NCBI RefSeq assembly: GCF_963853765.1
Contig: NC_088859.1
Location: 51,832,001-51,896,000, forward strand
From: Magallana gigas
Taxonomy: Eukaryota
Length of the DNA stretch: 64,000 bases
Direction: 5' to 3'
Part shown: positions 1 to 3,000 of the stretch, piece by piece
How the letters are laid out: each line of letters begins with the position of its first letter
Numbering within the stretch: position 1 is the stretch's first letter
Made by a program: the position numbers

Positions 1-3000
1 CATCCTATGAATGGTGAATTATTTTCACTTTGTTTAAAAGCCTTGTAATGAAGACTTAGAGGACGGTAATAAAATTACTTGACAATACAAGACGTACATT
101 GTAATGACTTTATTCCACATATTTCAGTTTGGATTAATATAAAACAATATCATAAGATGACATGAGACAATTACATCACAATGATCAACAGTTTTGTAAA
201 ACCATGTCGGGTATTCCATAAACATACCGGTAACATATAGATTTGATCTCGCTGAAATAATCAAAAACGTAGAAAGATATACATCAAGGCTTTCTACTGA
301 CACACACACAGTAAGCCAACCAGAAAATGGCACTGCCACCGTCACGTGTCTCCCTTCTTGATTTTGTGGAACCCAGATGTACTAGAGAAGTACTTGGCAT
401 TGGCGGCTTGTACTTTACGTTCAGCGGCCTGGGGATTCACGATCTCAAGTCCCTGTCAAATAAGATATATTTGTGAATATACATGTACCATCTCCACATA
501 GTAGAACAAATGTCATGGCCAGACTGAGATCTCGAGCTCTATGAACTACTCACTACATTGTAGGGTATTCTAGGCACTATACAAACTGTGGAGGGTGTAC
601 AGTACATGCAACACAAAGTACAGGGATCTAACAGCAGGCACGTAGCATCAGGGGGGGCCAGGGGGGGCCTGGCCCCCCCCACTTTTTCCCGCAGCAACAA
701 ATTTGTTAAAATTTACATATAAAAAAATGAATTATAATGGAGTTGGCCCCCCCACTTTTTTGGAAGTTTGTAAAAAATTGATATGAGAATAAGGAAATGA
801 GTAGTCAATTTGAAGTTACCTTCCCCCCCCCCCCCCCCCCCCCCCCTCCACGGATTAGGAATTTCATGATTTGGAGGAAAAAAAATTATGGTAGGGAACA
901 ACTTTTTTTGGAAGTATAGTTGAGTCTCCCCCCCCCCCCCCCACGGATTAGGATTTTGAAGATTTCTGGAAACTGTAACTTTCCCTTTTATTTTTTATTT
1001 TTTGGGCTTGTCAAGATTTTTTGGATGGGTCTGGCCCCCCCACTTTCAAAAACGATGCTACGTGCCTGTAACATACCTGTAAAGGGGTGCAAAAGCCAAA
1101 CTAAAGGCTGTTCTATTATACATAACTGAAGAGGTCTAAATATATGCACTGGAAACTGTTCTATTATACAGGGTGTCCCATAATATCTGATACCATTTTC
1201 TCTTGGAATAACTTTTGATTAATTTAAATAACAGAAAACCAAAGTCATTTTCGTAACTGTATATGATGTAAATTTTCACTCAACAAATTTTACAAACATT
1301 CATAACTTTTCGACAAATTAAGCATTGTTTTAAAAAAACAACAACAAAAAAGAGGTTGCGTCAAAATGACATCCCTTTTTTATCAATGACAACGTCAATT
1401 TGAAGAGTAAAATTACTCTGTACCAATCTCATCTTCTTAAATCTTCTCACTATTTAGAGAATCTGTTGCCTGCTGAATTGTTTTTCGATAGGCTAATCTT
1501 ATTCAATACTAGTAATTCATACACCTATATCTGGCGTCTGTGTTTAAAATACAGTTTTAAAATGGAAGATACCTGCTCTGTTGTTCAATTCATTTATTCA
1601 ATTCAACCAAAGAAATATGATACAATTTTGTGACATCATAATTCAATGAGAAGCAAATTTTTCTCCTAAACTTTTTTATGGGGAAAAATTAAACTATTTC
1701 ACATTTTATTTGAGTCAAAGTTTACCAGTTTTGGCCATGCAATAATTAATTTACATGCATTTCAAATGGTATCAGATATTCTGGGACACCCTGTACATAC
1801 CTGTAGGGGTGTAAATGACACACTGGACTGTGTTCTATTATACATACCTGTAGGGGTGTAAATGCCACACTGGAGACTGTTCTATTATACATACCTGTAG
1901 GGGTGTAAATGCCACACTGGAGACTGTTCTATTATACATACCTGTAGGGGTGTAAATGCCACACTGGAGACTGTTCTATTATACATACCAGTATGGGTGT
2001 AAATGCCACACTGGGGACTGTTCTATTATACATACCTGTGGGGGTGTAAATGCCACACTGGACGCTGTTCTATTATACATACCTGTAGGGGTGTAAATGC
2101 CACACTGGGGACTGTTCTATTATACATACCTGTAGGGGTGTAAATGCCACACTGGAGACTGTTCTATTATACATACCTGTAGGGGTGTAAATGCCACACT
2201 GGGGACCGTTCTATTAAACATACCTGTAGGGGTGTAAATGCCACACTGGGGACCGTTCTATTATACATACCTGTAGGGATGTAAATGCCACACTGGGGAC
2301 CGTTCTTTTATACATACCTGTAGGGGTGTAAATGCCACACTGAGGACTGTTCTATTATACATACCTGTAAGGGTGTAAATGCCACACTGGGGACTGTTCT
2401 ATTATACATACCTGTAGGGGTGTAAATGCCACACTGGGGACTGTTCTATTATACATACCTGTAGGGGTGTAAATGCCACACTGGGGACTGTTCTATTATA
2501 CATACCTGTAGGGGTGTAAATGCCACACTGGGGACTGTTCTATTATACATACCTGTAGGGGTGTAAATGCCACACTGGACGCTGTTCCAGCAATCTGTCG
2601 TTTCACTGTTGTACTTCCTCCCCAAACATTGTTCTGCTTCTGAACTTTAGCCTTAACAAAATGGATATCAGAAATTACAATCATATCTAATAAATGTCAT
2701 TGTAACTATGCTGTAAACAAAATTAAATCACAAGCATTTTATAAATGACCTTACTCTCTAATATGGTACATGTACAATAAAGAAAAAAACAAACACAGTA
2801 CATGTACTAATATTTCAAATTTTTCAAGTAGCTCTATTTTTTCTTTGAGAACACTGCATGTAAATGCAATTTGCTTTGCTATTTTCTTATAATAAAAACA
2901 ATGTTTTTGTACACCACTTTAACACTGTTAATTTGTGAAAGTAAAAAGTTGCGTATAAAACTTGGTTGACAGGAGAACAAAAACAATATTCACGGCGGTA

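What the first reader, a model, noticed from the sequence alone, without database searches (positions are those of the whole stretch)
1794..2590. Second, independent donor-multiplying array in the same gene (last PRPF31 intron)
Seen: a 47-bp unit unrelated to the 77-bp one again consists of the exon end (..AFTPLQ) plus CAG|GTATGT, giving about 16 extra donors. Using the next donor adds 47 nt and frameshifts into the last exon (..HPYR-DLRS*), a truncated C-terminus that would escape NMD. Further donors include a TAA. Two independent origins of the same architecture in one gene is unexpected for random minisatellite placement.
Basis: partly seen in the sequence, partly recalled or inferred. Interest (0 to 1): 0.65.

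Follow-up and report, generated by a model that had tools for sequence, protein, structure and literature searches.

The report
Splice-donor-copying minisatellite in oyster PRPF31
A 47-base tandem repeat in the last intron of an oyster splicing-factor gene really does copy the exon end and its splice donor 16 more times, but this kind of junction-copying repeat is already known from human and amphioxus genes and is most likely harmless.

Summary
On the minus strand, the last 35 nt of PRPF31 exon 11 plus the first 12 nt of intron 11 form a 47-bp unit. It is repeated head to tail (window 1794-2587). This gives 17 xxG|GTATGT sites at exact 47-nt spacing: 1 authentic and 16 extra. The +47 product ends ...HPYR-DLRS*, and all later donors meet a TAA.

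The window is Pacific-oyster-like DNA, not human, and 17% of it is minisatellite. The architecture is a known kind: human F7 IVS7, IFI6, CBS, LMNB2 and PDGF, and the amphioxus "mirage" minisatellites. In most of those only the first donor is used.

Indirect evidence here points the same way. Transcript-sized database contigs encode the canonical junction, the junction motif is invariant across 9 proteins, and no database protein carries the tail. No RNA data could be examined.

"Two in one gene is unexpected" is weakly supported. Under uniform placement, 3 of 11 intronic arrays span a donor against 1.2 expected (P=0.10). The third is in a neighbouring COBW-domain gene, so the effect is not PRPF31-specific.

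A broader pattern is suggestive. Six of 11 arrays start within 18 nt of a donor against 1.6 expected (P=0.0016, threshold chosen post hoc). Verdict: real, a new member of a known kind, of modest interest.

The parts
2553..2651 (-). PRPF31 exon 11 (33 codons, AKVQ...AFTPLQ). Its last 35 nt are unit 0 of the array.
   Evidence: tblastn of P0004. Acceptor and donor contexts. Translation.
2547..2555 (-). Authentic donor CAG|GTATGT (8 of 9 matches to CAG|GTAAGT).
1794..2587 (-). 47-bp junction-spanning minisatellite. It has 17 units in register (unit 0 is the exon end plus the intron start). Units 1-15 differ from each other by a mean of 2.14 of 47 positions.
   Evidence: TRF. Register table. Pairwise differences.
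1795..2508 (-). 16 reiterated pseudo-donors, with the G of GT at 2505, 2458 ... 1800 (15 CAG|GTATGT and 1 CTG|GTATGT at 1988).
2496..2498 (-). TAA reached in frame by any transcript that uses the third or a later donor (...HPYRYV*).
1167..1795 (.). TIR-bounded insertion (MITE-like). It has 32-nt arms at 97% complementarity, including TA target-site duplications, and it splits unit 16 inside GTATG-TA-TAATA.
   Evidence: the repeat finder I1. Sequence. No second copy in the window.
1069..1166 (-). Two old decayed units (37/48 and 36/49 identical to the consensus unit). The second keeps CAG|GTATGT at 1076.
635..1068 (.). Second TIR-bounded insertion (15-nt perfect arms) that splits the last decayed unit. 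It contains long poly-C runs.
   Evidence: the repeat finder I2. One partial relative at 13655-13731. TRF C-runs.
453..634 (-). Non-repeat 3' remainder of intron 11, with acceptor ...TTATTTGACAG|G.
342..452 (-). PRPF31 exon 12 coding part (GLEIVNPQ...KKGDT, stop at 342-344). In the frame left by a +47 donor it reads (R)DLRS, then TGA at 437-439.
7143..9506 (-). The other junction-spanning array (77 bp; end of exon 4 plus GTAAGT). It has 30 GGG|GTAAGT sites: 1 authentic at 9465 and 29 extra.
   Evidence: TRF. 31 repeated tblastn hits to TIMVVSVTASTTQG. Donor count.
4307..4732 (-). 62-bp array that begins at the first nucleotide of intron 8. The intronic half of the donor is reiterated: authentic AAG|GTAGGT plus 5 CAT|GTAGGT.
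   Evidence: (17/18 match; 0 of 500 shuffles as good).
3205..3518 (-). 59-bp array in intron 10. It starts about 47-63 nt after the donor and is not derived from the junction.
39027..39217 (+). A third junction-spanning array, in a neighbouring COBW-domain gene. The 63-bp unit is 40 nt of exon end (..NSRGDKQEIYRLK) plus 23 nt of intron. There are 3.0 copies, 100% identical, and 3 AAG|GTACTC sites.
   Evidence: TRF. Sequence. tblastn. Site count.

Best explanation
This is a junction-spanning minisatellite, called a 'mirage' in the amphioxus literature and of the F7-IVS7 type in the human literature.

Origin (inferred from the anatomy). A 47-bp stretch straddling the exon 11/intron 11 boundary of oyster PRPF31 was duplicated in tandem. 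Ordinary minisatellite turnover (slippage, unequal exchange) then expanded and homogenised it. This lengthened an intron whose non-repeat part is about 200 nt to 2,100 nt.

Age (inferred). The array is old. Its distal units have decayed to about 75% identity, and two transposon-like elements have landed in it. The exon-proximal units are near-identical.

Effect on splicing (inferred, not observed). Every unit carries a donor as good as the real one. The spliceosome most likely uses only, or almost only, the most upstream copy, which is the one that closes the defined exon. The 16 extra donors then stay silent or are used at a low level. The array is probably a tolerated, near-neutral by-product of a minisatellite-rich genome and not a device.
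For: Anatomy:
- The array is exact, and unit 0 is the exon end.
- Unit 11 still carries the exon-type CGT variant.
- The distal units are 37/48 and 36/49 identical to the consensus, against a mean 2.14/47 differences among units 1-15.
- TIR-bounded insertions split units 16 and 18; the first shows a clear TA target-site duplication.

Genome context:
- 15 arrays cover 11,086 nt, or 17.3% of the window.
- A third, perfect 3-copy junction array lies in another gene.

Use of the first donor:
- P0004 (492 aa) equals the window's 12 exons except for 1 residue and carries ...AFTPLQGLEIVNPQ.... Its cluster holds 65 member sequences on 93 contigs, the longest 2,300 nt, which is transcript-sized for an 11.6-kb gene.
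- Of the 55 proteins with E<=0.01, none of the 10 whose sequences I read carries this species' read-through tail. By the table, the four 100%-identity oyster hits (P0001-P0004) cover 65% of the query, which is the exon only. The four proteins that do read through (P0005, P0007, P0012, P0013) continue with other sequences.
- GTASSVAFTPLQ|GLEIVNPQA is invariant in 9 of 9 aligned PRPF31 proteins, and Pfam Prp31_C runs to residue 463, across the junction.

Precedent:
- In F7, LMNB2 and PDGF only the authentic, most upstream donor is used, and the F7 pseudo-sites are functional but lose to the upstream one (PMC1557585: abstract, Introduction and Discussion read).
- Amphioxus mirages do not disturb splicing (PMC3087553, section 16; PMC3902484, one passage).

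Structure:
- RNA structure does not hide the copies. Exon 11 plus three units folds worse than shuffles (z=+2.57; 199 of 200 shuffles fold at least as well).
Against: No transcript data for this locus could be examined, so silence of the pseudo-donors is inferred.

[quoted passage not shown] A +47 or +94 product at a low level is therefore quite possible here.

In-vitro work that I recall, and saw in no call, found that with saturating U1 the donor nearest the acceptor can win.

The members of the P0004 cluster could not be listed (tool switched off). A +47 isoform at 90% identity or more could be hidden in that cluster.

The donor-proximal clustering of arrays is not explained by a purely neutral, uniform model.
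Confidence: 0.75

Rival explanations
1. The donor ladder is functional. Regulated use of downstream donors makes a C-terminally truncated PRPF31 (+47 or +94) or NMD targets (+141 and beyond). For example, it could act as an unproductive-splicing feedback on a core spliceosome protein.
For: The 16 pseudo-donors are as strong as the true one: 8 of 9 consensus matches, and identical up to 35 nt upstream and 12 nt downstream. Three of the four PRPF31 arrays reiterate all or half of a donor. In IFI6 and CBS, proximal pseudo-sites are used constitutively (PMC1557585, Introduction).
Against: The same architecture occurs in an unrelated COBW-domain gene, so it is not tied to a splicing factor. The +47 product would destroy a motif that is invariant in 9 of 9 proteins and lies inside the Prp31_C domain. 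No protein with the tail was seen. The units drift and decay like neutral sequence, and transposon-like elements sit inside the array.
Confidence: 0.08
2. The position is not chance. In this genome minisatellites arise, or survive, preferentially at or just after 5' splice sites. The cause would be a splice-site or transcription-linked mutational process, or selection for reiterated U1-binding sites. The PRPF31 arrays would be examples of that bias. This can hold together with the best explanation.
For: Of 11 arrays in mapped introns, 6 start no more than 18 nt after the donor or span it, against 1.62 expected (P=0.0016). Among the 7 arrays outside PRPF31 the count is 3 against 0.66 (P=0.02). 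Eight of 11 start within 90 nt, against 3.24 expected (P=0.0016). No array ends closer than 182 nt to an acceptor (remainders listed).
Against: The sample is one window of 11 arrays, chosen because it held such arrays, and the thresholds were set after seeing the data. Spanning alone is not significant (3 against 1.2 expected, P=0.10). The three CTL1 arrays lie 203, 346 and 2,461 nt from their donors. The two arrays that start 12 and 17 nt after a donor show no similarity to the junction (275 and 158 of 500 shuffles score as well), so they are not decayed junction arrays. Exon ends in three of the genes were placed from tblastn with relatives, not from transcripts.
Confidence: 0.25
3. The array is an assembly artefact, either a mis-assembled repeat or an inflated copy number.
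For: Long, near-identical tandem arrays are hard to assemble. Copy number cannot be checked without reads.
Against: The units carry ordered variants (runs of shared substitutions in units 6-8 and 13-15). An exon-type unit sits at position 11. A precise TA-flanked insertion and decayed distal units are present. An artefact would not produce these features. Four other arrays of the same build lie nearby.
Confidence: 0.03

Closest known systems
Human F7 intron 7 37-bp VNTR (Borensztajn et al. 2006, PMC1557585; abstract, Introduction and Discussion read)
   Same: A minisatellite whose first unit spans the exon-intron boundary, so the authentic donor is followed by identical pseudo-donors. It is polymorphic and intronic.
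   Different: The F7 unit has 4 nt of exon plus 33 nt of intron in 5-9 copies, with a weak donor UGG|gugggu. Here the unit has 35 nt of exon plus 12 nt of intron in 17 units, with a strong donor CAG|GTATGT. Use of the first site only was shown by experiment for F7. Here it is inferred.
Amphioxus 'mirage' minisatellites: Adh3, globins BflGb6 and BflGb9, troponin C, PGBD5 (PMC3087553 section 16 read; PMC3902484 one passage read; the original paper PMC117041 is not held)
   Same: Tandem duplications of exon-intron boundaries in an invertebrate with a very polymorphic genome. Units are tens of bp. Splicing is reported to be undisturbed. Cluster interiors homogenise and cluster edges decay, as seen here.
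   Different: The phylum differs (cephalochordate against mollusc). The amphioxus cases include acceptor-side duplications, and none was seen here. Searches listed no report from molluscs.
Human IFI6 (6-16) intron 2 and CBS intron 13 arrays (as described in the Introduction of PMC1557585)
   Same: Many reiterated donors (25 pseudo-sites in IFI6; 15-20 repeats in CBS).
   Different: [quoted passage not shown] Whether that happens here is unknown. Here such use would shift the frame.
Intron gain by tandem duplication across an AG|GT proto-splice site (Rogers model, as discussed in PMC3087553 section 16)
   Same: Tandem duplication that reiterates splice signals.
   Different: No new intron or exon has been created here. 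The copies lie inside an existing, conserved intron position.
Recursive (ratchet-point) splice sites (recalled; no call)
   Same: Each unit reads CCCCTACAG|GTATGT, a 3'-splice-site-like tract directly abutting a 5' splice site. Splicing from any donor to any later unit boundary would regenerate the same junction.
   Different: This is only a sequence resemblance. The only branch-point-like motif that I found by eye, TTTAC, lies about 12 nt upstream of the AG (in no call), and no usage data exist.

Membership tests
Junction-spanning ('mirage' / F7-IVS7-type) minisatellite | Head-to-tail array of units of about 10-160 bp | tested here: met
   Period 47, 16.7 copies, 95% matches, 0% indels.
Junction-spanning ('mirage' / F7-IVS7-type) minisatellite | The first unit contains the exon-intron boundary of a real, conserved exon | tested here: met
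   Unit 0 is the last 35 nt of exon 11 plus the first 12 nt of intron 11. The exon is confirmed by tblastn at 94-100% identity. Exon 11 ends at an invariant PLQ|G junction.
Junction-spanning ('mirage' / F7-IVS7-type) minisatellite | The splice signal is reiterated in the following units | tested here: met
   16 extra xxG|GTATGT sites at exact 47-nt spacing.
Junction-spanning ('mirage' / F7-IVS7-type) minisatellite | Regular splicing is kept: the authentic (most upstream) site is used, alone or mainly | tested here: inconclusive
   The evidence is indirect only. Transcript-sized contigs encode the canonical junction, and no protein with the tail was seen. No RNA reads or isoform data were available, and cluster members could not be listed.
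Junction-spanning ('mirage' / F7-IVS7-type) minisatellite | Copy-number polymorphism or instability between alleles | not testable with these tools
Recursive splice site | Juxtaposed polypyrimidine-AG|GTAAGT motif that is used as an acceptor and then as a donor | tested here: inconclusive
   A motif-like sequence, CCCCTACAG|GTATGT, is present in 15 of the 16 extra units. Usage is not testable.
MITE (for the two insertions in the array) | Terminal inverted repeats, a target-site duplication, no coding capacity, and multiple genomic copies | tested here: inconclusive
   TIRs of 32 nt (97%) and 15 nt (100%). A TA duplication is clear for the first insertion. Copies elsewhere in the window number 0 and 1 partial. 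Genome-wide copy number is not testable.

The most novel reading that the evidence does not exclude
Intronic minisatellites in this oyster genome are born, or kept, preferentially at 5' splice sites. Six of 11 start within 18 nt of a donor, and none lies near an acceptor. That would point to a splice-site or transcription-coupled duplication process, or to selection for reiterated U1-binding sites. PRPF31, with three donor-reiterating arrays, might use its pseudo-donor ladders at a low level as a spliceosome-sensitive, unproductive-splicing sink.
Probability: 0.2. Interest if true: 0.6.

Novelty: new member of a known kind. Interest (0 to 1): 0.3.

Why it matters
It adds a mollusc example to a small, scattered set of genes whose splice donor is reiterated by a minisatellite, and in fact several examples within 40 kb. 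With 17 equally strong donors, only the first of which keeps an invariant protein motif, the locus is a ready natural test of how a spliceosome picks the first of many equal donors in a non-vertebrate.

It also warns gene predictors and isoform callers about false alternative donors in minisatellite-rich genomes. If the donor-proximal bias of arrays holds genome-wide, it would need a mechanistic explanation.

Tried and rejected
1. Database isoform check. I searched the contiguous exon 11 plus read-through stretch (51 aa) among longer proteins. 55 proteins had E<=0.01 among 89 candidates, and no protein with this species' tail was seen. The proteins that do read through come from other species' introns.

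2. Listing the members of the P0004 cluster.

3. RNA structure that might mask the pseudo-donors. Rejected: z=+2.57, less stable than shuffles.

4. Known RNA families in 1-12500. None at gathering score.

5. The idea that arrays starting 12-89 nt after a donor are decayed junction arrays. Rejected for OXCT 24-bp (275 of 500 shuffles as good), COBW 46-bp (158 of 500) and OXCT 45-bp (34 of 500). The PRPF31 59-bp hit only shows that the array starts a little earlier than TRF reports.

6. A lower TRF threshold (score 30) added only micro-repeats and no further minisatellites.

7. The N-terminal 190 residues of the OXCT-like gene were not found in the window. The arrays at 61083, 46101, 16101 and 62800 could not be placed in introns and were left out of the 11-array count.

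8. The original 'mirage' paper (PMC117041) is not held.

9. Orthologous introns in other oysters could not be compared. The only open contig collection holds bacteria and archaea, so I did not scan it.

Exons were searched one by one, and the +47 reading was checked from two contiguous stretches.

Full report
WHAT THE WINDOW IS. The window has no N and is oyster DNA, not human. An exon of a choline-transporter-like gene is 100% identical to a Magallana (Crassostrea) gigas UniRef entry. PRPF31 exon 11 is 100% identical to proteins named from Saccostrea cucullata and Ostrea edulis. I therefore take the source to be the Pacific oyster or a very close relative.

THE GENE. tblastn of P0004 places 12 PRPF31 exons on the minus strand between 11914 and 345. 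P0004 is a 492-aa PRPF31 from transcript-sized public contigs, and it matches at 100% identity except for one residue, Q/R at position 401. All 11 introns have GT...AG ends. Exon 11 is 2651-2553, intron 11 is 2552-453 (2,100 nt), and exon 12 starts at 452 with its stop at 344-342.

THE OBSERVATION. TRF reports one array at 1794-2578 with period 47, 16.7 copies, 95% matches, no indels and score 1409. In register on the coding strand, the unit is the last 35 nt of exon 11 plus the first 12 nt of the intron, and unit 0 is the exon end itself. xxG|GTATGT recurs 17 times at exact 47-nt spacing (G of GT at 2552 ... 1800). Sixteen sites read CAG|GTATGT and one reads CTG|GTATGT. Each matches the consensus CAG|GTAAGT at 8 of 9 positions, which ties for the best among this gene's 11 donors. 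The 47-bp and 77-bp units share only one 10-mer, so the two arrays arose separately.

THE PREDICTED PRODUCTS. Read-through from exon 11 gives ...AFTPLQVCIIEQSPVWHLHPYRYV*. Exon 12 read from its second base gives DLRS*. Since 47 nt is 15 codons plus 2 bases, use of the second donor gives ...HPYR-DLRS*, with the stop in the last exon. Any later donor ends at the TAA at 2496-2498. I checked this from two contiguous stretches. I did not build or search a joined spliced sequence.

ANATOMY AND AGE.
- Units 1-15 differ from one another by a mean of 2.14 of 47 positions, and units 1-3 and 10 are identical.
- Local runs share variants (units 6-8 and units 13-15). Unit 11 keeps the exon-type CGT.
- Unit 16 is cut, inside GTATG-TA-TAATA, by a 625-bp element with 30-nt inverted ends flanked by TA duplications.
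- Beyond that element lie two decayed units, 37/48 and 36/49 identical to the consensus. The second still carries CAG|GTATGT at 1076.
- That second decayed unit is cut by another inverted-repeat element at 635-1068.
- Only 182 nt of non-repeat intron remain before the acceptor.

This pattern fits a tandem duplication that is old at its far end, homogenised near the exon, and tolerated for a long time. The same pattern of edge decay and interior homogenisation is described for amphioxus arrays (PMC3087553, section 16).

WHICH DONOR IS USED. No RNA data were available, so the evidence is indirect.
- P0004's cluster (65 sequences on 93 contigs of at most 2,300 nt) encodes the canonical ...AFTPLQ|GLEIVNPQ... 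join.
- One search returned 55 proteins. I read 10 of them and none carries this species' read-through tail. The four 100%-identity oyster hits cover 65% of the query, which is the exon only. The four proteins that do read through continue with other sequences.
- The join lies in a stretch that is invariant in 9 of 9 aligned PRPF31 proteins and inside Pfam Prp31_C, which covers residues 336-463. Only the first donor makes a normal protein.
- RNA structure does not set the copies apart (z=+2.57).
- Rfam finds nothing in 1-12500.

WHAT IS KNOWN. The Introduction of PMC1557585 lists human genes with a minisatellite whose first unit spans an exon-intron boundary:
- F7 intron 7: 37 bp, 5-9 copies, only the most upstream donor used.
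- LMNB2 and PDGF: only the authentic donor used.
- IFI6 and CBS: the authentic donor plus the two nearest pseudo-sites used.

The F7 work shows that the pseudo-sites are competent but lose to the upstream one through a 5'-to-3' oriented choice. In amphioxus the same structures are called mirages (Adh3, globins, troponin C, PGBD5) and are reported not to disturb splicing. The original Adh3 paper is not held. Searches listed no report from oysters or other molluscs, and supplements were not consulted. The finding is therefore a new member of a known kind.

IS TWO IN ONE GENE MORE THAN CHANCE? The window is very rich in minisatellites. Fifteen arrays cover 11,086 nt, or 17.3%. I mapped three more genes exon by exon with database relatives:
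- a choline-transporter-like gene;
- an OXCT-like gene;
- a COBW-domain gene.

Eleven arrays lie in mapped introns. Four others (at 16101, 46101, 61083 and 62800) could not be placed and were left out.

My null model drops the seed unit uniformly along the non-repeat intron length. Under it, each of the two PRPF31 junction arrays had about a 0.2 chance of spanning the donor. Overall, 3 of 11 arrays span a donor against 1.2 expected (P=0.10). The third is a perfect 3-copy 63-bp array in the COBW-domain gene at 39027-39217, made of 40 nt of exon plus 23 nt of intron. The architecture is therefore neither rare here nor specific to PRPF31.

A BROADER PATTERN, NOT EXPLAINED. Array starts crowd the 5' ends of introns.
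- Three arrays span the donor.
- The PRPF31 62-bp array starts at intron nucleotide +1 and reiterates GTAGGT five more times.
- Two arrays start 12 and 17 nt after a donor.
- Two start at about 47-63 nt and at 89 nt.
- Three start 203-2,461 nt away.
- None ends within 182 nt of an acceptor.

Six of 11 arrays start within 18 nt of a donor, against 1.62 expected (P=0.0016). Outside PRPF31 the count is 3 of 7 against 0.66 (P=0.02). The thresholds were chosen after seeing the data, and this is one selected window, so the pattern is a lead and not a result. The arrays that start near a donor without spanning it are not decayed junction copies.

MECHANISM, WITH STATUS.
- Shown: the unit is exon end plus donor, it is reiterated exactly, only the first donor gives the conserved protein, and the array is old with insertions inside it.
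- Inferred: origin by tandem duplication and unequal exchange, dominance of the first donor (by analogy with F7 and the mirages, and from database proteins), and near-neutrality.
- Speculative: each unit boundary, CCCCTACAG|GTATGT, also looks like an acceptor abutting a donor. Splicing between units would then regenerate the normal junction, as at recursive splice sites. This was not testable here.

VERDICT. It is best explained as a tolerated junction-spanning minisatellite of a known type. The claim of special placement in PRPF31 is weak. A general donor-proximal bias of oyster intronic minisatellites is the most interesting open lead.

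Noticed in passing
window 39027-39217 (+): A third junction-spanning array lies in a COBW-domain gene. The 63-bp unit is 40 nt of exon end plus 23 nt of intron, in 3.0 copies that are 100% identical, giving 3 AAG|GTACTC donors. Use of the next donor would meet a TAG after 5 codons (read by eye). It looks very young.
   Followed up: partly
window-wide: arrays at 58761, 35397, 4732, 54052 and 3518, among others: Intronic minisatellites cluster at the 5' ends of introns. Six of 11 start within 18 nt of a donor, and none ends within 182 nt of an acceptor. No explanation was found.
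   Followed up: partly
window 4307-4732 (-): The 62-bp array in PRPF31 intron 8 begins exactly at the intron's first base. Its first copy is a shortened unit, and the intronic half of the donor recurs 5 times as CAT|GTAGGT.
   Followed up: yes
window 1167-1795 and 635-1068: Two inverted-repeat, MITE-like elements both landed in the AT-rich GTATGTATAATA part of array units (the first with a clear TA duplication). The second element holds poly-C runs of 24 and 15 nt.
   Followed up: partly
window 2576-2585 and each 77-bp unit: The two exon ends share the 10-mer ACAGCGTCCA (coding strand), because both encode T-A-S. This is probably chance (E=0.031).
   Followed up: no
window 52448-58881 (-): The OXCT-like (succinyl-CoA:3-ketoacid CoA-transferase) gene matches only residues 191-520 of oyster relatives. 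No exons for the first 190 residues were found in the window. It may be a 5'-truncated copy.
   Followed up: partly
window 3642-3644 region (exon 10, -): The window encodes R where P0004 and the Saccostrea and Ostrea proteins have Q (residue 401). This is the only difference from P0004 in 492 residues.
   Followed up: no
window 1-64000: Fifteen minisatellite arrays (units of 24-174 bp) make up 17.3% of the window.
   Followed up: yes
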